Positions 26,238 through 60,347 of a DNA stretch of 64,000 nucleotides are shown here, one piece after another. Within the stretch, counting starts at the first letter, position 1. Every line of letters starts with the position of its first letter. Source of the DNA: Candidatus Altimarinota bacterium (GTDB taxonomy: Bacteria; Patescibacteriota; Gracilibacteria; CAIRYL01); NCBI GenBank assembly GCA_965250085.1, contig OZ252287.1, positions 1,088,001 through 1,152,000 of the forward strand. Reading direction: 5' to 3'. The notes below the pieces were generated by a model. The model did not search any database. It was given only the letters and a program-made list of their open reading frames with translations, and had not been told where the DNA came from. The translations under genes were made by a program, and so were the position numbers.

Positions 26238-26354
26238 TCTTGGCGACGACCTACTCTCCCAAGGGCAAGGCCCTAAGTACCATCGGCGCGGAAGGACTTA
26301 ACTACTGAGTTCGAGATGGGATCAGGTGTACCCCCTTCGCTATAGCCACCAAGA
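26238..26354 (-). rRNA. rrf: 5S rRNA
   Basis: Plus strand GGCGACGACCTACTCTCCC...AGTACCATCGGCGC...GTTCGAGATGGGATCAGGTG; terminal helix; ends approximate. Confidence 0.95.
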
Positions 26355-26577: not shown

Positions 26578-29807
<3,230 letters not shown>

Positions 29808-30754: not shown

Positions 30755-30831
30755 TGGTGGAGCATATCGGAGTCGAACCGATGACCTCCTGCGTGCAAGG
30801 CAGGCGCTCTAGCCAGCTGAGCTAATGCCCC
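30755..30831 (-). tRNA. tRNA-Ala (TGC)
   Basis: GGGGCATTAGCTCAGCTGGCTAGAGCGCCTGCCTTGCACGCAGGAGGTCATCGGTTCGACTCCGATATGCTCCACCA. Confidence 0.97.
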
Positions 30832-43890: not shown

Positions 43891-44932
43891 CCTCAATTCG
43901 AGTTTGAAGTGCACCACCTCGGAAGAATTTAATACTCTAGGTGCATGAACAACTATGAACACTTCAGTAAGAGCGAGAGACAAGAACTCTTAATACTCCA
44001 CTCCAAAGGGTATTCGATGAGATCGATAGCCAAAGCGATGAACAGGAGTCACTCTACAATCAGCAGAGAGCTCAAGCGGAAGATGAAGAGAGGAGGATAC
44101 GATGCGTGTAAGGCTCATCAAAAAGCACAGAACAAAAGAAGATTTAGTAAATACCAAGGAATGAAGGTACGTGAGGATGATGAGATAGAGAAGTATATGC
44201 GAGAAAAGATGTTGTTAAAATGGTCACCAGAGAAGATTGCAGGAGTACTGTACTTGGAGAAGAGAGTTCGTATTGGGAAAGATGCCATCTATACATATCT
44301 CTACAGTGCACACGGACAAGACCTATGTCCTCTTCTTTATCGCAAGAGATATAGGAAGCGTAAACGGAGAAAGAAGAAATCAAAGCATGAAATCATCAAA
44401 GATAGAGTGTTTATTGCCCAAAGACCTCAGCATATCAACCAGAAGAAAAGATTTGGACACTACGAAGGAGATACCATGGGCAGACCCAAGAAAGCTTCCC
44501 CACAAACTCTTGTCATCGTTAGAGAACGACTCTCTCGTAAAATATTCGTGAAGAAGGTGTCTCGGCTCAGAGAATCCATGCAGGGATTTGGAGACATTCT
44601 GCACCAACTCCCTGCATACTCACTTACCTTGGACAACGGTGTAGAAAACACCAGATATAAAGACTTAAGAATCCCTATTTATTTTTGTGACCCCTACTCT
44701 TCTTGGCAAAAAGGCTCTGTAGAAAACGCCATTGGAAAACTTAGAAAATTTGTCCCTAAGAAAGCTGACCTCAAGAATTTCTCTCAAAACCAGTTACAAT
44801 CCTTTGTTGATACTCTTAACAACACTCCCATGAAAGTTCTCGGCTTTAGAACTCCCACCCATGTCTTTGACTTCTATAACAATCTCTAATATCTTTTTAT
44901 CCCAAGTGGTGCACTTCACCACAGAATGCGGG
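43891..44932 (+). mobile_element. IS30-family insertion sequence, copy 2, with 3-bp target duplication ATA
   Basis: Same inverted repeats as copy 1; ATA at 43888-90 and 44933-35. Confidence 0.94.
43945..44889 (+). CDS. IS30-family transposase
   Basis: Same protein as copy 1 except STISRE versus STIIRE. Confidence 0.93.
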   Translation: MNNYEHFSKSERQELLILHSKGYSMRSIAKAMNRSHSTISRELKRKMKRGGYDACKAHQKAQNKRRFSKYQGMKVREDDEIEKYMREKMLLKWSPEKIAGVLYLEKRVRIGKDAIYTYLYSAHGQDLCPLLYRKRYRKRKRRKKKSKHEIIKDRVFIAQRPQHINQKKRFGHYEGDTMGRPKKASPQTLVIVRERLSRKIFVKKVSRLRESMQGFGDILHQLPAYSLTLDNGVENTRYKDLRIPIYFCDPYSSWQKGSVENAIGKLRKFVPKKADLKNFSQNQLQSFVDTLNNTPMKVLGFRTPTHVFDFYNNL

Positions 44933-50856: not shown

Positions 50857-51708
50857 TTATTTCTTCACGAATGATTTTTGACCTCCTATGTTTTTCCATG
50901 TCCAGAAAAAGATGGTAGCCGAAAGCGCTAACAGAATTAAAAAGATACGTAGTCCACCAATACTTATCTCACTTCCAAAAGCAAGGAGTGACATCAGGCA
51001 TTCACGAAGTGTAATCGCCAAGGTAAAGAGCATGACAAAACCTGAGACAAAGAGAAGAACAAAATGAAAAATAGCACACGCTTCAGATTGTATCTTCGGC
51101 ATAATTCTTTTTTGTCCATAATATGATGGCAACAAAAAGACTCCCAAAAGTGCTGTGGGGACTACGATACTGATAAAGTTCATCAAAAACTTGAGTCCTG
51201 ATTCATGAGTTTCAAACTGATCTGCAAATCCAAATTTCAGAAGCCAATTGGTCAGATACACCAGAAGAAAAACATCAAGGAGAATCAAAATGCCAGTAGA
51301 GAGAAGATGAAATACATGAGATGTATACAATACGGGACTTTTCACTTCATTCTTCTCGGTATCAAAGAGACTTCTTGGGAGAAATTTTTTCCCAATAACG
51401 AGAAGATATCCCCCTACGAGAAGAAGTATGATTTCTAGTCGCAAATTACTCATGGTCCAAAGCCCTCCTGCATCACCCCCAAATCCGATTTGCTCCAATA
51501 GATCATTTGCAAACAATCCGACTGCCAAAAGTATGGCGAGTATTCCACCCCCCCAAACCTTAAATGAAAACAGAGAGGAAAGAATGCGATTGGGTGATTT
51601 GGCAAGGAGGTATATAGCTGGGAAGAAAACGCCCACGGAACTAATAAAAGCGACCCAAAACAGGAGGGCAAGTATTCCAAAAACGGCTGGGAAGAATGCG
51701 GAGATCAT
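50857..51708 (-). CDS. Hypothetical multi-pass membrane protein
   Basis: About seven TM segments; start uncertain (51780 or 51708). Confidence 0.7.
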   Translation of the reverse strand: MISAFFPAVFGILALLFWVAFISSVGVFFPAIYLLAKSPNRILSSLFSFKVWGGGILAILLAVGLFANDLLEQIGFGGDAGGLWTMSNLRLEIILLLVGGYLLVIGKKFLPRSLFDTEKNEVKSPVLYTSHVFHLLSTGILILLDVFLLVYLTNWLLKFGFADQFETHESGLKFLMNFISIVVPTALLGVFLLPSYYGQKRIMPKIQSEACAIFHFVLLFVSGFVMLFTLAITLRECLMSLLAFGSEISIGGLRIFLILLALSATIFFWTWKNIGGQKSFVKK

Positions 51709-51826
51709 AGAGAAAAGAAAAAATTTATGAGTAAATTCTTTCGGGAGAGTAGCAGAAATGCTTCTTTGAGAGCAATACATGATTTCAGCATCCTCAATGT
51801 CTGAATTTTAGAACTGTAAAAAACTC

Positions 51827-51880
51827 TTGACTTTATATTCTTTCATATCTATATTTACTAGTGTTCTAGTAAGATAGTAT
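51827..51880 (+). promoter_or_regulatory. trp promoter and tandem TrpR operator
   Basis: TTGACT (51827-32), 17 bp, TATATT (51850-55); TTACTAGTGTTCTAGTAA (51855-72) plus a third 8-bp-phased half-site; compare E. coli GAACTAGTTAACTAGTAC. Confidence 0.82.
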
Positions 51881-52147
51881 ATGAAGAGCTCTCCAGACTT
51901 TATAAATGAATTGGCAAAAGTCATTGCGCATATTCACAATACAAAACGGGCAGAAGAGTTTCTTCTGGGCATATTAACTCCATCAGAGCGGGAAGAAGTG
52001 GCTCGCAGATTGCAAATATTGAAACTGTTAAAGCAAGGACATTCCCAATGGGAAGTAGCAAAAAAATTGGGTGTAGGAATTGCCACAGTGAGCAGAGGAG
52101 CAAAGGAATTGAAATATGGGAATTCAAAATTTCTTAATACTCTTTAA
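51881..52147 (+). CDS. trpR: Trp repressor family protein
   Basis: LTPSEREEVARRLQI..LL, SQ.E...LGVGIATVSRG; first gene of the trp operon. Confidence 0.88.
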   Translation: MKSSPDFINELAKVIAHIHNTKRAEEFLLGILTPSEREEVARRLQILKLLKQGHSQWEVAKKLGVGIATVSRGAKELKYGNSKFLNTL

Positions 52148-52148
52148 A

Positions 52149-52208
52149 ATGAAATCTTCAAACACAAAATTGCAGGCTTGGTGGATAACTTTTTTCGTAC
52201 GGCATTGA
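52149..52208 (+). CDS. trpL: trp leader peptide MKSSNTKLQAWWITFFVRH
   Basis: Tandem TGG TGG at 52179-84; ATG 1 nt after the trpR stop; followed by the attenuator. Confidence 0.82.
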   Translation: MKSSNTKLQAWWITFFVRH

Positions 52209-52270
52209 GGTGCCCATTTTTCTGAAACTGTAAAAGTTTGTAAACACCTCATCGCCGAGGTGTTTTTTTA
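52206..52270 (+). terminator. trp attenuator (antiterminator/terminator pair)
   Basis: Terminator AAACACCTC-ATCGCC-GAGGTGTTT plus T-run; alternative pairing TGAGGTG (52206-12) / CACCTCA (52245-51). Confidence 0.82.
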
Positions 52271-52283
52271 TTTTTAAAATATA

Positions 52284-53783
52284 ATGATTCAATATAGCAA
52301 AATACACACTGGCATATACGAAGGGTCTGAAGAGATTCCGTATGAGACCGCGCATGAAATATTTTCTCGGTTGTACAGAAATTATGAATTCAAGTTTTTA
52401 CTAGAATCCAAGGACATTTCTCATATCTATGGAAGGCTCAGTCTCATCGGCGTTGATCCCATCTTGAAAATATCTGGAAAAGATGAAAATTTTGAGATTT
52501 CTGTATTACAGGAAAGAGGGAAATCGTATTTGGAACGCATATCGAAAGACGACTTGGCACTTTGTGATCATTGCGAGAGAGGGGAAAATGGTATTACAGG
52601 AAGAATTTCTAAAAAAACTCACGAATTTGACGAAGCAAAACGATCTCAACAAAAAAATATTGCCCAGGTCATCAGAATGGCTTTACAAGGATTAAAACTT
52701 AAAAGGAAGAGCTTTCTTGGCCTCTACGGAGCTCTGAGCTATGACTTTATTCGTCTTTTTGAAGAAATTCCTAATATTTTACCGGAGAACGATGTAAATG
52801 ATTTTACTTTTTTTCTCTATGACACATTTGTCTTCTTTGATCATCTGAAGGAGAAAACAGAAATTATTGCCTTTCGAGGTGATATACAGAGTGCTCAGAA
52901 GGCTATCTCCAAGATCTGTAAACAAGTAAAAGTAAAAAAGAAGCCTTCTTCTTATGAAATCTCAAGAGTGAAATTTTCCCTGAAACAGGATGAATATGAA
53001 AAAATGGTTGAAATCGCAAAGGAGTACACCAAAAAAGGAGAATTGTTTGAAGTCGTCTTTTCAAATATTCTAAACGCTCATTTTAAAGGAGACCCATTTG
53101 CACTGTATCTTGCCTATCGTGAAACAAATCCGTCTCCGTATCTTTTTTATTTTGACTTTGGAAACGAACAACTTGTAGGAGCATCCCCAGAAATGATGGT
53201 GCGTGTGGAAAACAATATCGCCCATCTTCGTCCTATTTCAGGGACAGCTAGAAGGGGTGAAGACGCCATTGAGGATCATGAGAATATGCTTTCTCTTCTC
53301 AGCGATCCCAAAGAGAAGGCCGAACTCGATATGCTTATTGATTTGGGGCGAAACGATCTGAGCAGGATTTGTAAGCCAAATTTAAAAATTAGTGATTATC
53401 GATTTGTTGAAAAATATTCAAAAGTAATGCACACGGTGGCTCATTTGCAGGGTGAATTGAGATCTGGATATATCGCCCTTGACGCTCTCATTGCCTGTCT
53501 TAATGCTGGCACACTTACGGGGGCACCAAAAGTTGCTGCAATGAAGGTAATTGAAAAGCATGAGAAAGAGAGAAGAGGATATTATGGTGGTGCTCTTGGC
53601 TACTTTACCTTCTCAGGCGAAATGGACACTGGGATTATTATTCGTACGGCACACATTCGAAAAAATGCACTGAGATTTCAGGTAGGAGCGACTTTACTCC
53701 ATGATTCTCAGCCAAAGAAAGAATATGAAGAGACGCTGCAGAAGGCACAGGCTTTTTTAAACACATTCGTTCATCAATCTTAA
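52284..53783 (+). CDS. trpE: Anthranilate synthase component I
   Basis: LLES, NPSPY, GASPE, RPISGT, DLGRND, AGTLTGAPK, YGGALG. Confidence 0.95.
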   Translation: MIQYSKIHTGIYEGSEEIPYETAHEIFSRLYRNYEFKFLLESKDISHIYGRLSLIGVDPILKISGKDENFEISVLQERGKSYLERISKDDLALCDHCERGENGITGRISKKTHEFDEAKRSQQKNIAQVIRMALQGLKLKRKSFLGLYGALSYDFIRLFEEIPNILPENDVNDFTFFLYDTFVFFDHLKEKTEIIAFRGDIQSAQKAISKICKQVKVKKKPSSYEISRVKFSLKQDEYEKMVEIAKEYTKKGELFEVVFSNILNAHFKGDPFALYLAYRETNPSPYLFYFDFGNEQLVGASPEMMVRVENNIAHLRPISGTARRGEDAIEDHENMLSLLSDPKEKAELDMLIDLGRNDLSRICKPNLKISDYRFVEKYSKVMHTVAHLQGELRSGYIALDALIACLNAGTLTGAPKVAAMKVIEKHEKERRGYYGGALGYFTFSGEMDTGIIIRTAHIRKNALRFQVGATLLHDSQPKKEYEETLQKAQAFLNTFVHQS

Positions 53784-53784
53784 T

Positions 53785-54372
53785 ATGTCTCATTATAAAA
53801 ACATTCTCGTTATTGATAACTTTGATTCATTTACCTTTAATTTGGTTGATTATCTTACGCAGCTAAATTGTAAGGTCACAACGCTTCGCAACACTATCAG
53901 TATATCCTCTGTAGCGAAAATTGACCCAGATTTAATTGTTCTTTCTCCTGGTCCATCGGTTCCAAAAAACGCAGGGAATCTTATGGGTATTATTGATAGA
54001 TATCATGATATATATCCAATATTCGGAGTCTGCTTGGGACACGAAGCGCTCATTGAATATTTTGGTGGCACGCTTACATTTACTGAACCAGTTCATGGAA
54101 AAGCTTCTCCCATTCGTCATGATGGAAAGACTATTTTTACCGGACTTGAGCAGAATTTTATGGCAGGTCGATACCATTCTCTCATAGCCGACAAAGTGCC
54201 ATCATGCTTCTGCACTTCAGCAAAATACAAAAATATTGTTATGGGAGTGCGTCATAGAAGCCTGCCAATAGAAGGCGTGCAGTTTCATCCAGAGTCAGTT
54301 CTGACCATGAAAGGTCAAAATGGATTTCATATTATTAAAAATCTTGTTTATGGATACGATAGAATTTCTTAA
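53785..54372 (+). CDS. trpG: Anthranilate synthase component II (glutamine amidotransferase)
   Basis: IDNFDSFTFNL, LSPGP, GVCLGH, RYHSL, QFHPES. Confidence 0.95.
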   Translation: MSHYKNILVIDNFDSFTFNLVDYLTQLNCKVTTLRNTISISSVAKIDPDLIVLSPGPSVPKNAGNLMGIIDRYHDIYPIFGVCLGHEALIEYFGGTLTFTEPVHGKASPIRHDGKTIFTGLEQNFMAGRYHSLIADKVPSCFCTSAKYKNIVMGVRHRSLPIEGVQFHPESVLTMKGQNGFHIIKNLVYGYDRIS

Positions 54373-56656
54373 ACGGAGTATCTCCGGTCGGCTTTCCTTG
54401 CATCAGCAAAAGGAATTTTTAGAATCAAAAAAATCACTTACTGCTGAGGAGTTCAGGGATATCGTTGTTTTTTTGCAAAAGGACCTTCCAGAGAAGCGGA
54501 GGTTTTCTGAAGCAATTGATGTTTGTGGCACCGGTGGGTCGGGTCTCCAGAGGATCAACACCTCTACCATTGCTGCTTTTATTTTGGCGTCACTAGGAGT
54601 CAAAGTGGCGAAACATGGGAATAAAGCTGCAAGTGGCCGTTTTGGCAGTTTTGATCTTGTGGAAACACTTGGTATTAATTCTCATAGTTCTGAAACGCTC
54701 TATCATAATCATCATCTTGCGCTTCTTTTTGCTTCGGAGTTTTACCCGGCCATGAAGCATTTCGCGCCAGTCAGGAAAAGTATCGGGAAGCCAACCTTCT
54801 TTAATCTCTTAGGACCACTCTTGAGTCCTGTGCGTGCACAGAAACAAATTATCGGTACTGCGTTTCGAGATAAAATGGAAATCATTGCTCAAACATGCAA
54901 ACTTCTTGGAAAAAAGCATGTTTTTGTGGTTTGTGGGGAAGATGGACTGGATGAAGTGACTCTGACCGGAAAAACATATGTAGTGGAACTCCATAAGAAC
55001 AAAATACAAAAATATATAATTTCTCCAAAAGATTTTGGACTCTCCTCATGTTCTTTCTCTGAAATCAAAGGAGGAACCCCAAAATATAATGTAAAAATGA
55101 CTCAATCTATACTCCAGGGAAAATGTAAAACTAAACATTTGGATCTTGTGCTCATCAATGTTGCTCTTGCGCTTCAGCTCACTGGGAAAGCAGTAAATCT
55201 TAAAGATGGATATCGTTTGGCGAAACAGGCTGCTCAGGAAGGAAAAGCATTCGAGACGCTTCATATCTATCAAGAATATTCTAAAACTCCTCATATTCTT
55301 CAAAAAATCGTTCAACATAAATGTGAGGAATTGGAAAAAAGGAAACTGAAATACTCCTTAGAAAAACTAAAAAAAGAAGCTCCAATCTGCGATAGAAATT
55401 TTATAGCGCGTCTGCAAAGACCAAGATTATCTCTTATTGCCGAAATAAAAAAATATTCTCCCAGCTCGCCAAAAATAGCTTCTGGAAGCTTTTCACCAAC
55501 AAGGATTGCACGACTCTATGAAAAAAATGGTGTTGATGCAATCTCTGTGCTTTGTGATCAAAAATATTTTGGTGGTAGCTTACAGCATCTTCAAAAAGCG
55601 TATGAACATACAAAACATACTCCGATTCTTTGCAAAGATTTTATTATTGATGAATATCAAATCTACGAAGCGAGAAAATATGGTGCTTCCGCAGTGCTTT
55701 TGATTGCAGCAATTTTAAATGAAGATCAGATAAAGAAGTTTCTGAAGGTAGTGGAAAGTCTGAAAATGACGGCTATATGTGAAGTGCATAATCGCGAAGA
55801 ACTTGAAAAAGTACTCAAAACTTCAGCGAAAGCAATTGGCATCAACAATAGAGATTTAAATACTTTTACGACAAGCATGCGGGTAACGAAAAAACTTGCT
55901 CCGCATATACCTGCTGACAAAATTCTCATCTCTGAGAGTGGCATTACTTCAAAAAGTAATATCGATTTACTCCCAGAAAATATTGATGCAGTACTCATAG
56001 GAACATCTTTCATGTCCAGCGAGAATATTTCAGAAAAAATACACAGTCTTTTTCGTTCACAAAAACCACTTTTGAAGATATGTGGTATTCGCACAGAAGA
56101 GGAAGCATATTTTTGTGACGCACTCGGCATAGACCTTATTGGTCTTAATTTTGTCGAAAAAAGCCACAGATCTGTCTCTGTCAAAAAAGCAAATATAATT
56201 TGCGAAAATATTACTCATGCAAAAACAGTTGGAGTTTTTCAAAATCATAAACTGGAAGAAGTAAATAAAATAGCGACTGCGCTTAATCTCGACTACATAC
56301 AGCTTTCCGGCAAAGAGACGCTGTCTTATGTTCAAAAGTGTTGTAAGCCGGTTCTCAAAACTATTCCTCTCAAAACATCAGCAGATATAAAAATAGCTGA
56401 AAAATATTTGCCACATGTGTCTTATGTCATTTTTGATGGCCCCGATCCTGGGAGTGGAAAAATGATGAATACTGATCTTTTGAGAGGTATTTCAGGAAAA
56501 TTCTTTCTGTCGGGAGGAATAAATGCAAACAATATTGGAACAATGATACAAAAATTGCATCCATTGGGAGTTGATATTGCCAGCGGCGCAGAAACAGATT
56601 TAAAAATCGATTTACAAAAAATTTCTTTTCTCTTTCATCACCTTTCACCATGTTAA
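54350..56656 (+). CDS. trpDCF: Trifunctional fusion: anthranilate phosphoribosyltransferase (TrpD) + indole-3-glycerol-phosphate synthase (TrpC) + phosphoribosylanthranilate isomerase (TrpF)
   Basis: TrpD: DVCGTGG, KHGN, FNLLGPL, DGLDE. TrpC: IAEIKKYSPS, LCKDFII, GINNRDL, SESGI. TrpF: KICGI, GLNF, QLSG.E, LSGGI, GVDIASG. Confidence 0.92.
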   Translation: MDTIEFLKRSISGRLSLHQQKEFLESKKSLTAEEFRDIVVFLQKDLPEKRRFSEAIDVCGTGGSGLQRINTSTIAAFILASLGVKVAKHGNKAASGRFGSFDLVETLGINSHSSETLYHNHHLALLFASEFYPAMKHFAPVRKSIGKPTFFNLLGPLLSPVRAQKQIIGTAFRDKMEIIAQTCKLLGKKHVFVVCGEDGLDEVTLTGKTYVVELHKNKIQKYIISPKDFGLSSCSFSEIKGGTPKYNVKMTQSILQGKCKTKHLDLVLINVALALQLTGKAVNLKDGYRLAKQAAQEGKAFETLHIYQEYSKTPHILQKIVQHKCEELEKRKLKYSLEKLKKEAPICDRNFIARLQRPRLSLIAEIKKYSPSSPKIASGSFSPTRIARLYEKNGVDAISVLCDQKYFGGSLQHLQKAYEHTKHTPILCKDFIIDEYQIYEARKYGASAVLLIAAILNEDQIKKFLKVVESLKMTAICEVHNREELEKVLKTSAKAIGINNRDLNTFTTSMRVTKKLAPHIPADKILISESGITSKSNIDLLPENIDAVLIGTSFMSSENISEKIHSLFRSQKPLLKICGIRTEEEAYFCDALGIDLIGLNFVEKSHRSVSVKKANIICENITHAKTVGVFQNHKLEEVNKIATALNLDYIQLSGKETLSYVQKCCKPVLKTIPLKTSADIKIAEKYLPHVSYVIFDGPDPGSGKMMNTDLLRGISGKFFLSGGINANNIGTMIQKLHPLGVDIASGAETDLKIDLQKISFLFHHLSPC

Positions 56657-57633
56657 TTGTCATGCAAAACACCGCTTCTCAGAAGCAAGTCGAAGATGTT
56701 GTGAATGCCATCGAAAAACTCAATCTCAAAGCAGAAAAGATTCCGGGTTCTCAGCGTACGGCCATTGGAGTCATTGGAAATAAAGACTATGTTAACGAAG
56801 GAGGTATTCTTAATTTTCCAGGGGTAAAAGAGATAATCCATGTGACCAAAAAATATAAGTTGGTGAGCAGGGAATATAAAAACGAGGATACTCTGGTAAA
56901 AGTGGGGAACACAGTTGTTTTTGGAGGTAAAAAACCCGTCGTTATTGCTGGTCCCTGTTCTATAGAATCTGAGGATCAATTTCTTACCATCGCCAAGACG
57001 GTAAAAAAACTTGGTGGCGATATGCTCAGGGGTGGTGCGTATAAACCAAGAACTTCTCCCTATTCCTTTCAGGGACTCGGAGAAAGTGGTTTACGAATTA
57101 TGAAAAAAGTATCTCAGCAAGTGGGACTTCCGATAGTGAGCGAAATTATTTCTGCCGAGGATATACCACTGTTTCAAAAGTATGTTGATATGGTTCAAAT
57201 TGGCTCTCGAAATATGCACAATTTTGACCTCATTCAAAAAGTTGCCCTTATGGGCAAACCTATTCTTCTCAAGAGAGGGATGTCGGCAATGATGGAGGAG
57301 TTTTTATTGGCTGCAGAATATATTTTGAATGCAGGGAATCCAAATGTTGTTCTTTGTGAAAGAGGAATACGGACTTTTGAAAATTCCACAAGGAATATAC
57401 TTGATCTCAACACTCTCGCACTCATTAGAAAGGAGTCGCATTTGCCGATTATTGCTGATCCAAGTCATGCGGCTGGTCGTTTTGACCTTATCACACCGCT
57501 TGCAAAATCAGCACTTGCAGCCGGTGCACAAGGACTTATTGTTGAAGTCCATAATAACCCAAGAGAAGCTCTTTCTGATGGCGAACAGTCACTCAATTTG
57601 GACACTTTCCATTCCTTTATGAAACAACTATGA
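56650..57633 (+). CDS. aroF: 3-deoxy-7-phosphoheptulonate (DAHP) synthase, type I-beta with N-terminal regulatory domain
   Basis: IAGPCSIE, RGGAYKPRTSPYSFQG, QIGSRNM, LCERG, DPSH. Confidence 0.93.
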   Translation: MLIVMQNTASQKQVEDVVNAIEKLNLKAEKIPGSQRTAIGVIGNKDYVNEGGILNFPGVKEIIHVTKKYKLVSREYKNEDTLVKVGNTVVFGGKKPVVIAGPCSIESEDQFLTIAKTVKKLGGDMLRGGAYKPRTSPYSFQGLGESGLRIMKKVSQQVGLPIVSEIISAEDIPLFQKYVDMVQIGSRNMHNFDLIQKVALMGKPILLKRGMSAMMEEFLLAAEYILNAGNPNVVLCERGIRTFENSTRNILDLNTLALIRKESHLPIIADPSHAAGRFDLITPLAKSALAAGAQGLIVEVHNNPREALSDGEQSLNLDTFHSFMKQL

Positions 57634-58826
57634 AATCGCTTAAAAAGTACATATTGAATAGATCTGGACACTTTGGGATATATGGGGGCAGATATATTCC
57701 TGAACTCCTCATGCCCATCATGGAGGAATTGGAGCAGGCTTTTTACGAAAGCATACGAGATCGCGATTTTCTTTCTGATCTCAAAGGTTTGTATACCACT
57801 TTTGTTGGCAGACCTACTCCTTTATATTTTTGTGAGAACCTAACGAAAAAGCTAGGAGGAGCTAAAATCTTTCTCAAAAATGAGGGGCTTGCTCACACCG
57901 GGGCACATAAAATCAATCACTGCACAGGACAGGCGCTCCTGGCAAAAAAACTTAAAAAGAAAAGGATTATTGCAGAAACAGGAGCAGGACAACACGGTTT
58001 AGCTACTGCGACCATTGCAGCAAAATTTGGATTTGATTGCACTATTTATATGGGTGCAAAGGACTATAAAAGGCAACGTCCAAATGTGTTCTGGATGGAA
58101 AGACTCGGAGCGACAGTAGTTCCAGTTACAATTGGCGGCCAAATACTGCGAGATGCAATCAACGAAGCATTGCGGGACTTGATTTCGAACCCGAAAGATA
58201 CTCATTATTTACTGGGTACTGTGTGTGGACCTCATCCATATCCAGTGATGAATGCATATTTTCAAAGTATTGTCGGAAGGGAGATGAAAAAGCAACTTCA
58301 GAAAAAACCTAATTATCTCGTTGCCTGTGTTGGCGGTGGGAGCAATGCCATGGGCATTTTTCATGAGTTTTTGGATGATCAGGATGTCAAAATGATAGCT
58401 GTGGAAGCAGGGGGGAGGAGTTTAAAATCGACAAAGAAAGGATGTGAGCACGCTGCTCGTTTTGAAAAAGGAAAAGTAGGAGTAACTGAAGGGTTTAAAT
58501 CGTATTTTCTCCAAGATAAGCACGGACAGATGCGAGAAACACACAGTATTGCCGCAGGATTGGATTATTCTGGAGTGGGACCTCAACTCGCATATCTCAA
58601 AGATATTGGTCGTATTAAAACTTCGTACGCATTCGATAGAGAAGTGCTCGAAGCATATACACTTTTAGCAAAAGAAGAGGGAGTTCTTGCTGCTCTAGAA
58701 TCCTGCCATGCTGTTGCTGAGGTTATCAAGCTTGCTCCAAAGCTCAATAAAGAAGAAGTTATAGTTTTCAATTGCTCTGGAAGAGGGGATAAGGATTACT
58801 TCATTGTTCGGGATAAATTTTCATAA
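57630..58826 (+). CDS. trpB: Tryptophan synthase beta chain
   Basis: HTGAHKIN, AETGAGQHG, ACVGGGSNA, AGLDY, SGRGDKD. Confidence 0.97.
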   Translation: MKSLKKYILNRSGHFGIYGGRYIPELLMPIMEELEQAFYESIRDRDFLSDLKGLYTTFVGRPTPLYFCENLTKKLGGAKIFLKNEGLAHTGAHKINHCTGQALLAKKLKKKRIIAETGAGQHGLATATIAAKFGFDCTIYMGAKDYKRQRPNVFWMERLGATVVPVTIGGQILRDAINEALRDLISNPKDTHYLLGTVCGPHPYPVMNAYFQSIVGREMKKQLQKKPNYLVACVGGGSNAMGIFHEFLDDQDVKMIAVEAGGRSLKSTKKGCEHAARFEKGKVGVTEGFKSYFLQDKHGQMRETHSIAAGLDYSGVGPQLAYLKDIGRIKTSYAFDREVLEAYTLLAKEEGVLAALESCHAVAEVIKLAPKLNKEEVIVFNCSGRGDKDYFIVRDKFS

Positions 58827-58832
58827 TTCCAA

Positions 58833-59570
58833 ATGAAACTCATGACTCACATCGTCGGCGGATATCCCACTATGAAAGAATGTGAAGCTATAGCACTTAC
58901 TATGGTAGAAGCAGGAGTATCATATTTAGAAATTCAAATTCCTTTTTCCGATCCCATCGCTGATGGCAGAACAATCTTGAAAGCTAATACAAAAGCTTTG
59001 CAAAATGGAATTACTCCTGAGGATTGTTTTAGACTTATGAAGAAGTTAAAACGGCAGACAAATATACCTCTTCTGTTTATGACCTATTACAATATCCCCT
59101 TTCGTTATGGGCTTGAAAAGTTCTGCAAAAAAGCAAAAGAGATAGGGTGTTATGGACTTATAATCCCTGATATTCCTATAGATGAAGAAAAATATGAGAA
59201 TTATCTTTCGATTTGTAAAAAACATAAACTGCACGCCATACAAGTGATTTCTCCTCTTACTCCTGAAGCGAGGTTAAAGAAAATAACAAAAGTCGCATCG
59301 GGGTTTGTGTATTGTGTCTCGTCTTCTGGTACCACAGGGGAAAGAAAGAATTTCTCTCCGAAGTTGGATGAATATCTCAAGAGAGTGCGAAAGCATATAC
59401 ATGTGCCAATAGCTTTAGGATTTGGAATTTCCAGGAAAAGCCATATTGGAGTCATTCAAGAAAAAGTGGATATTGCCATAATTGGGAGCAAATTGATCAA
59501 TCTTTATAACACTTCAAAGGAGAATAAGTTACAAACAATAAAAAGCTTTCTCAAAAAACTAACCTCCTAA
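58833..59570 (+). CDS. trpA: Tryptophan synthase alpha chain
   Basis: GYP, LEIQIPFSDPIADG, MTYYN, GTTG, GFGIS. Confidence 0.95.
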   Translation: MKLMTHIVGGYPTMKECEAIALTMVEAGVSYLEIQIPFSDPIADGRTILKANTKALQNGITPEDCFRLMKKLKRQTNIPLLFMTYYNIPFRYGLEKFCKKAKEIGCYGLIIPDIPIDEEKYENYLSICKKHKLHAIQVISPLTPEARLKKITKVASGFVYCVSSSGTTGERKNFSPKLDEYLKRVRKHIHVPIALGFGISRKSHIGVIQEKVDIAIIGSKLINLYNTSKENKLQTIKSFLKKLTS

Positions 59571-59619
59571 AAAGAAAAAATCTGAACTCAAAATCAGTAC
59601 AATTTCTACGAGAATAGCC

Positions 59620-59648
59620 TTGACTCTCACTACCTTCATCAGTAAACT
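59620..59648 (+). promoter_or_regulatory. Promoter of the rplC cluster
   Basis: TTGACT-17-TAAACT, then a leader of about 120 nt. Confidence 0.6.
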
Positions 59649-59771
59649 CCCTTGGCGTTTTGATCTTGCGCAATACATTCGGGTTCAAGTCCTTTTGTTT
59701 TCTAAAAGGGCGAAACAGGGTTTTTATCCTCTCAGAATCTGAATTTTATTTTCAAGCTCTCAAAGACCTTT

Positions 59772-60347
59772 ATGATTGGAATACTTGGAAAAAAACTCGG
59801 TATGTCTCAGTTGATCACAGAAGAGGGACACATGGTTCCTGTGACGTATCTTGTGTGCGAACCCAATACTGTCCATCAAAAAAAAACAGAAGATAAAGAT
59901 GGGTATAGTGCTGTTGTTTTAGGCGCTGGTCCACTCAAAAAGCCAACGAAGACAAAAAAGTTCAAGAAATTGAAAGAATTTAAATGCGACGAAGGAGAAT
60001 ATAAAGAAAAAGATAAGATAAAAGTTGATATCTTTGAACCAAGTGATCTTGTTCGTATCTGCGGAGTATCAAAAGGAAAAGGATTTCAGGGAAGAGTAAG
60101 AAGGCATAATGCTCGTGTTTCACGTCGAACACATGGAACAAAATACACTCGCCATGGATCAACTGGACAATGTGCTATGCCAGGACGAACAAAAAAGGGA
60201 ACGAAGATGCCTGGTCGAATGGGGTGTGACACAGTCACTCTTAGAAACAGACCCATTATGATGGTGGATGTAAAACGAAATATCTTGGCGATCAAAGGAT
60301 CAGTGCCAGGGGCTATTAATTCTCTTGTTGTTATTGAAAAGCAATGA
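59772..60347 (+). CDS. rplC: 50S ribosomal protein L3
   Basis: GKKLGMSQ, DGYSAV, SKGKGFQG, MPGRMG, KGSVPG. Confidence 0.97.
   Translation: MIGILGKKLGMSQLITEEGHMVPVTYLVCEPNTVHQKKTEDKDGYSAVVLGAGPLKKPTKTKKFKKLKEFKCDEGEYKEKDKIKVDIFEPSDLVRICGVSKGKGFQGRVRRHNARVSRRTHGTKYTRHGSTGQCAMPGRTKKGTKMPGRMGCDTVTLRNRPIMMVDVKRNILAIKGSVPGAINSLVVIEKQ

What the first reader, a model, noticed from the sequence alone, without database searches (positions are those of the whole stretch)
51827..59570. Complete, intact tryptophan biosynthesis operon in an apparent CPR/Patescibacteria genome
Seen: promoter-operator, trpR, trpL, trpE, trpG, trpDCF, aroF, trpB and trpA, all open, tightly packed and with catalytic motifs intact. 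Known: CPR bacteria generally lack amino-acid biosynthesis, and a trpR-led operon with an internal leader and a DAHP synthase resembles what is described for Chlamydiae such as Simkania. Inference: the module was acquired horizontally and lets a host-dependent cell make Trp from chorismate or anthranilate, for itself or a partner.
Basis: partly seen in the sequence, partly recalled or inferred. Interest (0 to 1): 0.85.

Follow-up and report, generated by a model that had tools for sequence, protein, structure and literature searches.

The report
Regulated tryptophan operon in CPR bacterium
A small-genome CPR bacterium carries a complete, tightly regulated set of tryptophan-making genes; the same gene block is common in its bacterial class and probably reached this genome from a related CPR lineage, so it is real but not unique.

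Summary
Window 51827-59570 (+) reads promoter, TrpR-type palindrome, trpR, a 19-codon leader with tandem Trp codons plus terminator, trpE, trpG, a trpD-C-F fusion, a DAHP synthase, trpB and trpA. All are open and packed.

The host is CPR. The nearest L2 proteins are from Peregrinibacteria, Peribacteria and Gracilibacteria MAGs. The genome is a closed 1.37 Mb contig in which L30 was not found.

- The operon is not a one-off. TrpA occurs in 96 of 401 sampled genomes of the class, against 20 of 401 across the phylum.
- The same trpR-E-G-DCF-(aroA)-B-A block stands in other families of the class.
- The genome also has a full shikimate pathway, PRPP synthase and SHMT, so synthesis can be de novo.
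- G000's copy is closer to operons of other orders (TrpB 72-75% identical) than to its own family's scattered genes (52-55%). This favours transfer within the CPR class, not from Chlamydiae. AU tests are only marginal.
- The Simkania operon differs in order, fusion and leader.

The most instructive point is regulation. Operator-like palindromes and Trp-codon leaders recur across these CPR operons.

The parts
51827..51855 (+). sigma-70-like promoter, TTGACT (51827-51832), 17 nt, TATATT (51850-51855)
   Evidence: A 10 of 12 match, the best in the region. TTGAC stands at the same relative place in all 13 parsed related operons (read by eye). The scan as a whole is not enriched over shuffles.
51855..51872 (+). 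TrpR-operator-like palindrome TTACTAG-TGTT-CTAGTAA, between -10 and the trpR start
   Evidence: Unique in the window and in the genome at up to 1 mismatch. 12 of 18 positions equal the E. coli trpO as printed in PMC13762905. GTACTA-type palindromes stand at the same place in related operons.
51881..52147 (+). trpR, 88 aa Trp-repressor-family HTH protein, first gene of the operon
   Evidence: PF01371 5.9e-21. TIGR01321 58.8 bits, below its cut-off of 67.25. E. coli TrpR chains match at E 2.8e-7 with LTPxERE and GIATxxRG aligned.
52149..52208 (+). trpL leader ORF, MKSSNTKLQAWWITFFVRH, tandem Trp codons at 52179-52184, stop TGA at 52206-52208
   Evidence: TGGTGG occurs in 8 of 13 equivalent regions of related operons, against a mean of 0.29 in shuffles.
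52206..52212 (+). 5' strand of the predicted antiterminator (UGAGGUG), overlapping the leader stop codon; pairs with 52245-52251
   Evidence: Fold of the stalled-ribosome segment gives -16.1 kcal/mol, against -11.7 for the terminator hairpin. Prediction only.
52242..52275 (+). intrinsic-terminator-like hairpin AAACACCTC-ATCGCC-GAGGTGTTT plus T-run, 9 nt before trpE
52284..53783 (+). trpE, anthranilate synthase component I (499 aa)
   Evidence: PF00425 1.5e-75 and PF04715. 62-67% identical to G127, G296 and G372.
53785..54372 (+). trpG, glutamine amidotransferase component II (195 aa)
   Evidence: PF00117 7.7e-47 and TIGR00566 above its cut-off. GVCLG and HPE motifs present.
54320..56656 (+). 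trpD-trpC-trpF triple fusion (778 aa; a second ATG at 54350 would give the 768-aa form held in the protein database)
   Evidence: PF00591, PF00218 and PF00697 in one frame. P0001 is 768 aa. ATG at 54350.
56650..57633 (+). aroA/aroF-type DAHP synthase, class I-beta, with N-terminal ferredoxin-like domain (327 aa)
   Evidence: PF18152 plus PF00793; NF006421 471 bits. 45% identical to the genome's second DAHP synthase. 69-75% identical to the operon copies in G296, G127 and G372.
57630..58826 (+). trpB, tryptophan synthase beta (398 aa)
   Evidence: TIGR00263 547 bits. HTGAHK at residue 89.
58833..59570 (+). trpA, tryptophan synthase alpha (245 aa)
   Evidence: PF00290 4.6e-68 and TIGR00262 above its cut-off.

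Best explanation
This is a working, self-regulated tryptophan biosynthesis operon in a CPR bacterium of the Gracilibacteria/Peregrinibacteria-type class.

Pathway: the seven Trp-pathway activities convert chorismate to Trp. An operon-embedded DAHP synthase boosts entry into the shikimate pathway, which the genome encodes in full. With PRPP synthase and SHMT also present, Trp can be made de novo.

Regulation is inferred to work twice.
(1) TrpR, the first gene, binds the TACTAG-N4-CTAGTA palindrome between -10 and its own start. When Trp is plentiful it shuts off the whole operon, itself included.
(2) Transcripts that start are stopped at the hairpin and T-run before trpE unless a ribosome stalls at the two Trp codons of the 19-codon leader. 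A stall frees UGAGGUG (which contains the leader stop codon) to pair with the terminator's 5' arm.

Origin: the block is a module shared by many families of the class. G000 most likely received it from another order of the same class, replacing the scattered, unfused trp genes that its own order carries.

Shown: gene content, architecture, distribution, sequence affinities. Inferred: enzyme activity, TrpR binding, attenuation, and the direction and fact of transfer.
For: Genes and domains.

Supply lines in G000:
- A second DAHP synthase next to aroB.
- aroD type I and aroE.
- An EPSP synthase-shikimate kinase fusion and aroC.
- PRPP synthase and two SHMT genes.

Trp content: the operon enzymes hold 2 Trp in 2,530 residues, while the leader holds 2 in 19.

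Operator:
- It is unique in the genome.
- It matches the E. coli trpO at 12 of 18 positions.
- Related palindromes stand before trpR in the other operons.

Attenuator:
- TGGTGG is on the sense strand in 8 of 13 trpR-trpE junctions and in 0 of 13 on the reverse complement. In 2000 dinucleotide shuffles the mean was 0.29 and the maximum 3.
- Terminator-like hairpins were found by script in 9 of 13 junctions.
- In all 7 junctions where both elements were found, the stretch after the Trp codons folds onto the terminator's 5' arm. Those folds are -11.8 to -22.9 kcal/mol, against -5.5 to -12.8 for the terminators.

Class-wide module:
- TrpA in 96 of 401 genomes.
- A fused D-C-F match in at least 20 of 401.
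- Identical order with aroA in G296, G127 and G372, and the same order without aroA in six others.

Transfer:
- G000 proteins are 57-75% identical to operons of families f24, f25, f27, f33 and f36. They are 36-55% identical to those of its own family and 41-65% to the sister family.
- G000 lies inside starred clades made only of other orders: TrpB 95/96; TrpB+TrpA+TrpD 96/99 and 97/98.
- A tree holding the whole order together is rejected (p-AU 0.0007).
- The other 19 genomes of the order have unfused genes, mostly scattered. Of the 15 whose trpB neighbourhood was read, only G012 has a full trpR-to-trpA cluster and G014 a trpB-trpA pair.
- None of the 80 relatives' L2 loci has trp genes before rplC.

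Not a chimera.
Against: - There is no expression or biochemical evidence.
- AU tests do not cleanly reject G000 grouping with its own family: p 0.17 for TrpB alone; p 0.045 for three proteins under the simpler LG+G4 model with a quick tree. The C20-model test did not finish. I also named the groups after seeing identities.
- The own-family clade sits on a long branch (0.8), so rate acceleration could mimic foreignness.
- The leader region does not fold better than shuffles (z -1.04).
- The closest operon (G127) and G012, G064 and G136 show no Trp-codon ORF.
- The genomes compared are kin, so the 8 of 13 are not independent.
- TrpR scores below NCBIfam's TrpR equivalog cut-off (58.8 against 67.25). 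One DNA-contact position differs from the E. coli sequence in the alignment (residue roles are recalled).
- The donor is unknown: the best match is only 68% identical over 920 columns.
- No named outgroups could be added, so where the class itself got the module is open.
Confidence: 0.7

Rival explanations
1. Vertical retention. The fused trpR-led operon is ancestral to the class, G000 simply kept it, and the rest of its order split the fusion, scattered the genes and evolved faster.
For: The module is spread over many families of the class. All 20 genomes of the order keep trp genes (TrpA 20 of 20 at E<=0.001). The sister family keeps trpR next to trpE in 8 of 8 genomes, and G012 keeps a whole operon. 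AU does not reject G000 plus its own family on TrpB (p 0.17) and only marginally on three proteins (p 0.045). The own-family genes sit on a long branch.
Against: It needs the fusion to be undone and the genes scattered at least twice (in the sister family and in the rest of the own family). G000 is nested two starred branches deep among other orders, not beside its order. One clade for the whole order is rejected (p 0.0007). Every protein is closer to other orders than to either family of its own order.
Confidence: 0.2
2. One reading: the module came into this CPR cell from outside the CPR, from Chlamydiae-like bacteria such as Simkania.
For: A trpR-first operon with an operon DAHP synthase is described for Simkania, and a leader between trpR and trpB for Chlamydia (PMC3937554 passages; PMC7755916 abstract start in the listing). 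D-C-F fusions 45-47% identical carry Marinimicrobia and Deltaproteobacteria labels, so the module is not confined to the CPR.
Against: The best matches of the fusion (50-59%) and of TrpR that carry an organism name are Gracilibacteria or Peregrinibacteria. Operons of identical order lie in CPR genomes of the same class. Simkania has unfused D, C and F, aroA last, 18 nt between trpR and trpE and no leader. No chlamydial sequence was compared directly here.
Confidence: 0.04
3. Assembly chimera or contaminant contig: the operon belongs to another organism.
For: None found. The operon GC (0.385) is slightly below the genome's (0.401).
Against: It is a single closed 1.37 Mb contig with 0.45% contamination. 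The operon is flanked by CPR-type ribosomal genes on the same contig. In each of 4 runs a 34,269-bp contig spans both junctions with 0 differences at even depth. Those runs are one sample and probably the source, so this is not independent confirmation.
Confidence: 0.02
4. The short ORF and hairpin after trpR are not a Trp sensor. The hairpin is just a leaky terminator of trpR, trpE-A have their own start, and the TGG pair is incidental.
For: The fold is not better than shuffles. Four of 13 related junctions lack a Trp-codon ORF. A weak promoter-like site stands at 52123-52150 (9 of 12). There are no RNA data.
Against: TGGTGG occurs in 8 of 13 junctions, against a shuffle mean of 0.29 and none on the other strand. 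It always lies in an ORF that ends just before or within the strand able to pair with the terminator arm. The leaders differ in sequence but keep this layout.
Confidence: 0.2

Closest known systems
Escherichia coli trp operon (TrpR repression at trpO plus trpL ribosome-mediated attenuation)
   Same: Dual control logic. The operator half-sites ACTAG/CTAGT have the same 4-bp spacer length, and 12 of 18 positions equal trpO. There is a leader with two adjacent Trp codons followed by a terminator. TrpC-F is fused.
   Different: Here trpR is the first gene of the operon (autoregulated) and the leader lies after it. E. coli trpR is unlinked (recalled). TrpD is fused to C-F, not to G. A DAHP synthase is inside the operon. 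No clear 1:2 pause hairpin was identified.
Chlamydia trachomatis trpRBA and C. felis/caviae trpR-led operons
   Same: trpR is first, followed by an intergenic region with a Trp-rich leader and a predicted attenuator before the structural genes (PMC3937554 passages; PMC7755916 abstract start).
   Different: Chlamydia keeps only salvage genes and adds iron-dependent YtgR control. Here the whole pathway is present and the intergenic region is 136 nt.
Simkania negevensis trpR/E/G/D/C/F/B/A/aroA operon
   Same: A complete pathway led by trpR, a class I-beta DAHP synthase in the operon, overlapping genes, and enzymes nearly free of Trp.
   Different: Simkania has D, C and F unfused, aroA last, 18 nt between trpR and trpE and no leader. 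No sequence comparison with Simkania was made here.
trpR-E-G-DCF-(aroA)-B-A operons of other families of the same CPR class (G296, G127, G372, G064, G075, G041, G053 and others)
   Same: Same genes, order, fusion, trpR-first layout, operator-like palindrome, and in several a Trp-codon leader plus terminator. TrpB is 66-75% identical.
   Different: Only G000 has the block directly before rplC. Some lack aroA. In G372, G075 and G097 the Trp pair is in TrpR's own C-terminal tail.

Membership tests
Complete tryptophan biosynthesis operon | All seven activities (TrpE, G, D, C, F, B, A) encoded, open and co-directional | tested here: met
   Pfam and NCBIfam matches for every domain; no stops; junctions overlapping or at most 6 nt apart.
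Complete tryptophan biosynthesis operon | Enzymes catalytically active | not testable with these tools
   Only short motifs were checked (TrpB HTGAHK, TrpG GVCLG/HPE; the motif definitions are recalled).
TrpR (Trp repressor) family | Trp_repressor fold/domain | tested here: met
   PF01371 74.8 bits against a cut-off of 27. E. coli TrpR chains match at E 2.8e-7 to 1e-4.
TrpR (Trp repressor) family | Scores as the TrpR equivalog (TIGR01321) | tested here: not met
   58.8 bits against a cut-off of 67.25. It is still nearer to TrpR than to YerC/YecD (37.6 against 42.2).
TrpR (Trp repressor) family | Palindromic ACTAG-type operator overlapping the regulated promoter | tested here: met
   TACTAGTGTTCTAGTA at 51856-51871, right after -10 and unique in the genome. 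12 of 18 positions equal trpO.
TrpR (Trp repressor) family | Trp-dependent DNA binding | not testable with these tools
   Needs EMSA or a reporter.
Ribosome-mediated (leader-peptide) transcription attenuator | Short ORF with clustered codons of the regulating amino acid | tested here: met
   A 19-codon ORF with TGG-TGG at codons 11-12. It recurs in 8 of 13 related junctions against a shuffle mean of 0.29.
Ribosome-mediated (leader-peptide) transcription attenuator | Intrinsic terminator between the leader and the first structural gene | tested here: met
   A 9-bp stem plus T-run at 52242-52275, 9 nt before trpE.
Ribosome-mediated (leader-peptide) transcription attenuator | Mutually exclusive antiterminator whose formation depends on ribosome position | tested here: inconclusive
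   The predicted pairing of 52206-52212 with 52245-52251 (-16.1 against -11.7 kcal/mol) covers the leader stop codon. The whole-region fold is no better than shuffles. There is no covariation test because the leaders do not align.
Known Rfam leader/riboswitch families (Trp leader, T-box) | Match to a curated covariance model | tested here: not met
   No gathering-level match in the window there. Only chance-level hits at E 0.12-7 in 51780-52330.
CPR / Patescibacteria host | Ribosomal-protein affinity to CPR genomes | tested here: met
   The L2 best 80 loci are 55-70% identical. 70 of 80 carry CPR names and the top hits are Peregrinibacteria, Peribacteria or Gracilibacteria. No tree was built.
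CPR / Patescibacteria host | Lacks ribosomal protein L30 (trait recalled from the CPR literature) | tested here: met
   PF00327 was not found in the closed genome, while 13 of 14 control genomes have it.
Class I-beta DAHP synthase with regulatory N-terminal domain | DAHP_synth_1 core plus ferredoxin-like domain | tested here: met
   PF00793 8.1e-76 and PF18152 1.1e-16; NF006421 above its cut-off.

The most novel reading that the evidence does not exclude
In this CPR class, tryptophan supply is sensed twice. One sensor is an autoregulated TrpR at an E. coli-like operator. The other is ribosome stalling at tandem Trp codons. That would be the first sign that transcription-translation-coupled attenuation operates in CPR bacteria. 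In some members (G372, G075, G097) the leader has fused in frame to trpR, so the repressor's own C-terminal tail (..WW..stop) serves as the attenuator leader. I found no description of a repressor-leader fusion in my searches.
Probability: 0.45. Interest if true: 0.6.

Novelty: new variant of a known kind. Interest (0 to 1): 0.4.

Why it matters
CPR bacteria are usually described as unable to make amino acids. This case, and the class-wide distribution found here, show that one CPR class keeps a full de novo tryptophan route from PEP and erythrose-4-P. That fits published presence/absence notes.

The new content is the design:
- a compact trpR-first operon with a D-C-F fusion and its own DAHP synthase;
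- enzymes almost free of Trp;
- a combination of repressor and leader-peptide attenuation otherwise known from Proteobacteria and Chlamydia.

If the regulation is real, these organisms tune Trp synthesis to supply. That argues for an at least partly self-sufficient or Trp-limited lifestyle. It also offers a simple, testable regulatory system for bacteria with almost no experimental genetics.

The pattern in G000 also suggests that whole pathways move between CPR lineages.

Tried and rejected
- Chlamydiae or Rickettsiales host. This was my first guess, from the unlinked 16S/23S and the missing S10 before rplC. I rejected it after the L2 search.
- Synteny of trp next to rplC in relatives: none of the 80 loci shows it.
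- S10 position as an insertion scar. S10 directly precedes L3 in only 34 of 68 loci with enough upstream sequence, so the junction is variable and uninformative.
- The metagenome-contig scan with the D-C-F fusion gave 109 pattern hits, none a relative. I did not take the permitted second scan.
- The Rfam search for a known leader or T-box found nothing above chance.
- The AU test under the C20 mixture model on the three-protein set did not finish in two calls. I replaced it with LG+G4, which the tool's own notes say is more prone to long-branch effects.
- Protein comparison on the second TrpR-like gene returned no alignment because I gave the wrong frame. I read it by script instead: it is a YerC/YecD-like paralog. 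The PF01371 count of 18 of 20 in the order therefore mixes two paralog groups. Only G000 and the 8 sister-family genomes have the trpE-linked type.
- Literature. Searches listed no paper joining CPR, Patescibacteria, Peregrinibacteria or Gracilibacteria with trp operon, TrpR or attenuation beyond presence/absence statements. Only the top 12-25 of each list were seen.
Fig. 5 and the supplements of PMC9166423 may already list these trp genes.
- No structure prediction, complex prediction, Atlas search or representative search was run, because none would change the verdict.

Full report
**What is there**

On the + strand between 51827 and 59570 lie seven tightly packed protein-coding ORFs.
- trpR, 51881-52147: PF01371 at 5.9e-21.
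- trpE, 52284-53783.
- trpG, 53785-54372.
- One 778-aa ORF, 54320-56656, holding the TrpD, TrpC and TrpF domains in that order.
- A class I-beta DAHP synthase with an N-terminal ferredoxin-like domain, 56650-57633.
- trpB, 57630-58826.
- trpA, 58833-59570.

Junctions overlap or are at most 6 nt apart, and a second ATG at 54350 would give the 768-aa form of the fusion held in the protein database. rplC, rplD, rplW and rplB follow directly.

**Control region**
- TTGACT-17-TATATT (51827-51855) is the best promoter-like site in the region, although such sites are not enriched overall.
- Abutting -10 is the palindrome TTACTAG-TGTT-CTAGTAA (51855-51872).
- Its 16-bp core occurs once in the window (0 of 100 shuffles gave a match). 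It occurs once in the whole genome at up to one mismatch.
- It shares 12 of 18 positions, including both half-sites and the spacer length, with the E. coli trpO as printed in PMC13762905.
- One base after the trpR stop, a 19-codon ORF (52149-52208, MKSSNTKLQAWWITFFVRH) begins.
- It is followed by a 9-bp hairpin and T-run (52242-52275), 9 nt before trpE.
- UGAGGUG, which contains the leader's stop codon, can pair with the terminator's 5' arm. That fold is -16.1 kcal/mol, against -11.7 for the terminator.
- The region as a whole folds no better than shuffles (z -1.04), and no Rfam family matches.

**Host**
- The window lies in a closed 1,368,807-bp contig, 97% complete and 0.45% contaminated.
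- 16S is about 1.07 Mb from the 23S-5S.
- The 80 best L2 loci in the named genome collection are 55-70% identical. 70 carry CPR names and the top ones are Peregrinibacteria, Peribacteria or Gracilibacteria. 7 carry other phylum names and 3 only 'bacterium'.
- L30 was not found.
- Some genomes of the same class have in-frame TGA in trpA, as expected for the Gracilibacteria-type class. This last point is my inference.

The CPR call stands.

**Assembly**

In each of four runs a 34,269-bp contig covers 51001-60500 with no difference. The runs are one sample and one study, probably the source, so this excludes a stitching error rather than giving independent confirmation.

**Metabolic context**

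G000 encodes every shikimate-pathway step.
- A second DAHP synthase, 45% identical to the operon copy, sits next to aroB.
- aroD type I and aroE.
- An EPSP synthase-shikimate kinase fusion and aroC.
- PRPP synthase and two SHMT genes.

So Trp can be made de novo, not only from imported chorismate or anthranilate. The operon's enzymes contain 2 Trp in 2,530 residues.

**Distribution**

Within the order (20 genomes):
- TrpA is found in 20 of 20 at E<=0.001, and in 19 above the cut-off.
- TrpD/TrpC are found in 18 of 20.
- A strong TrpB match is found in 15 of the 19 other genomes of the order.
- These genes are unfused and mostly scattered. Around TrpB in 15 relatives, only G012 has a trpR-E-G-D-CF-B-A cluster, G014 has trpB-trpA, and 13 have trpB alone.
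- TrpE orthologs (41-57% identical) occur in all 8 genomes of the sister family. They occur in none of the 11 other genomes of G000's own family, which have only 30-38% paralogs.

Beyond the order:
- TrpA is in 96 of 401 sampled genomes of the class, against 20 of 401 across the phylum, 8 of which are from this class.
- A single match spanning 700 or more residues of the fusion is in at least 20 of 401 class genomes.
- I fetched 20 such loci.
  - G296, G127 and G372 have exactly trpR-E-G-DCF-aroA-B-A.
  - G064, G075, G041, G053, G136 and G396 have the same without aroA.
  - The others are variants or are cut by contig ends.
- The protein database holds more than 100 clusters with the triple fusion (44-56% identical). 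Those carrying an organism name include Gracilibacteria and Peregrinibacteria and, at 45-47%, Marinimicrobia and Deltaproteobacteria labels.

**Origin of G000's copy**
- Every operon protein is closer to operons of other orders than to its own order. For TrpB the figures are 66-75% against 52-55% for its own family and 58-65% for the sister family. The other proteins behave likewise.
- In the TrpB tree the own-family sequences form a 100/100 clade on a long branch. G000 lies in a 95/96 clade with 12 sequences of other orders.
- The TrpB+TrpA+TrpD tree (32 rows, 955 columns) puts G000 inside clades supported 96/99 and 97/98 that are made only of other orders. Its nearest neighbour is G127.
- AU tests: the order as one clade is rejected (p 0.0007). 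G000 with its own family is not rejected on TrpB (p 0.17) and only marginally on three proteins under LG+G4 (p 0.045). The mixture-model test did not finish.
- No relative has trp genes before rplC.

I judge transfer from another order of the same class the most likely history, at about 0.75. Retention with dispersal elsewhere is the main rival.

**Comparative support for the regulation**

In 13 parsed trpR-trpE junctions:
- TTGAC and a GTACTA-type palindrome precede trpR (by eye).
- TGGTGG is on the sense strand in 8 and on the other strand in 0. In 2000 shuffles the mean was 0.29 and the maximum 3.
- The Trp pair lies in a separate short ORF in G000, G296 (WWW), G159, G041 and G162, and as W-A-W in G053. 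In G159, G041 and G053 the leader ATG overlaps the trpR stop.
- In G372, G075 and G097 the Trp pair lies in a C-terminal extension of TrpR itself.
- A script found terminator-like hairpins in 9 of 13 junctions. In the 7 with both elements, the post-Trp segment folds onto the terminator's 5' arm.
- G127, G064, G136 and G012 show no such ORF.

The genomes are related, so these are not independent trials. But the leader sequences are not alignable, which argues for conservation of the layout rather than of the sequence.

**Comparison with what is known**
- Simkania's operon is trpR/E/G/D/C/F/B/A/aroA, unfused, with 18 nt after trpR and no leader (PMC3937554, passages).
- Chlamydia has trpR followed by a leader-bearing intergenic region, but only salvage genes.
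- E. coli has the same two control layers but an unlinked trpR (recalled).
- Presence of Trp genes in Gracilibacteria (PMC9166423, passage) and of trpA/trpB in 15-18% of larger-celled groundwater CPR MAGs (PMC8672522, passage) is published.
- Ca. Peribacter riflensis was reported to make only Ala, Ser and Gly (PMC4736985, passage).
- My searches listed nothing on TrpR, leaders or operon architecture in CPR. Supplements were closed.

**Verdict**

This is a real and well-read observation in a real CPR genome. The headline claim of an exceptional import from outside the CPR does not hold. The block is a common module of this class, and Trp genes there are already noted in print. The value lies in the operon's architecture, its probable repressor-plus-attenuator control, and a likely pathway-scale transfer between CPR lineages.

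Noticed in passing
L154 (G372), L155 (G075), L167 (G097): the 3' end of trpR: In three related operons TrpR carries a C-terminal extension with two adjacent Trp residues just before its stop codon, followed closely by a terminator-like hairpin. The repressor ORF itself may act as the attenuator leader.
   Followed up: partly
window 26578-29805 (-), 26238-26353 (-), 30755-30831 (-); G000:C1:13693-15164: The 23S rRNA gene spans 3,228 nt against a 2,925-position model, so it holds about 300 nt of extra sequence. No intron family was reported. The 23S-5S pair with an upstream tRNA-Ala is about 1.07 Mb away from the only 16S gene.
   Followed up: no
G001-G011 (own family), e.g. L098-L104, L170-L178, L185-L191: The other genomes of G000's family keep scattered trpD, trpC, trpA and trpB. 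They have no TrpE ortholog, only 30-38% identical chorismate-binding paralogs. They may start from anthranilate or indole, or use a divergent TrpE.
   Followed up: partly
G000:C1:223699-225570 (-): EPSP synthase and shikimate kinase are fused in one 623-aa protein.
   Followed up: no
G012, G014, G015 (sister family): The classical 3-dehydroquinate synthase domain PF01761 was not found in any of the 3 sister-family genomes searched, although later shikimate steps are present. This hints at another route to dehydroquinate.
   Followed up: no
G331, G133, G379, G060, G224, G264 (same class): The trpA matches carry 5-16 in-frame TGA codons. Members of the class that seem to read TGA as sense also have tryptophan synthase.
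   Followed up: no
proteins P0004, P0008, P0085, P0093, P0098: Further fusion forms of the same module exist in public data: G-D-C-F, D-C-TrpB, D-C-DAHP synthase and E-G-D-C-F.
   Followed up: no
G000:C1:300938-301282 and window 59570-59772: The S10 gene lies about 840 kb from rplC. In relatives it directly precedes L3 in only 34 of 68 loci. No terminator-like site was found between trpA and rplC, but a TTGACT-17-TAAACT site stands at 59620-59648.
   Followed up: partly
G000:C1:331457-331705 (-): A second PF01371 gene is a YerC/YecD-like paralog that is present through the order and is unlinked to trp genes.
   Followed up: partly
window 50857-51780 (-) and 43945-44889 (+): The 307-aa ORF diverging from the trp promoter has no Pfam or NCBIfam match. 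A 314-aa ORF has only an HTH_38 domain.
   Followed up: no
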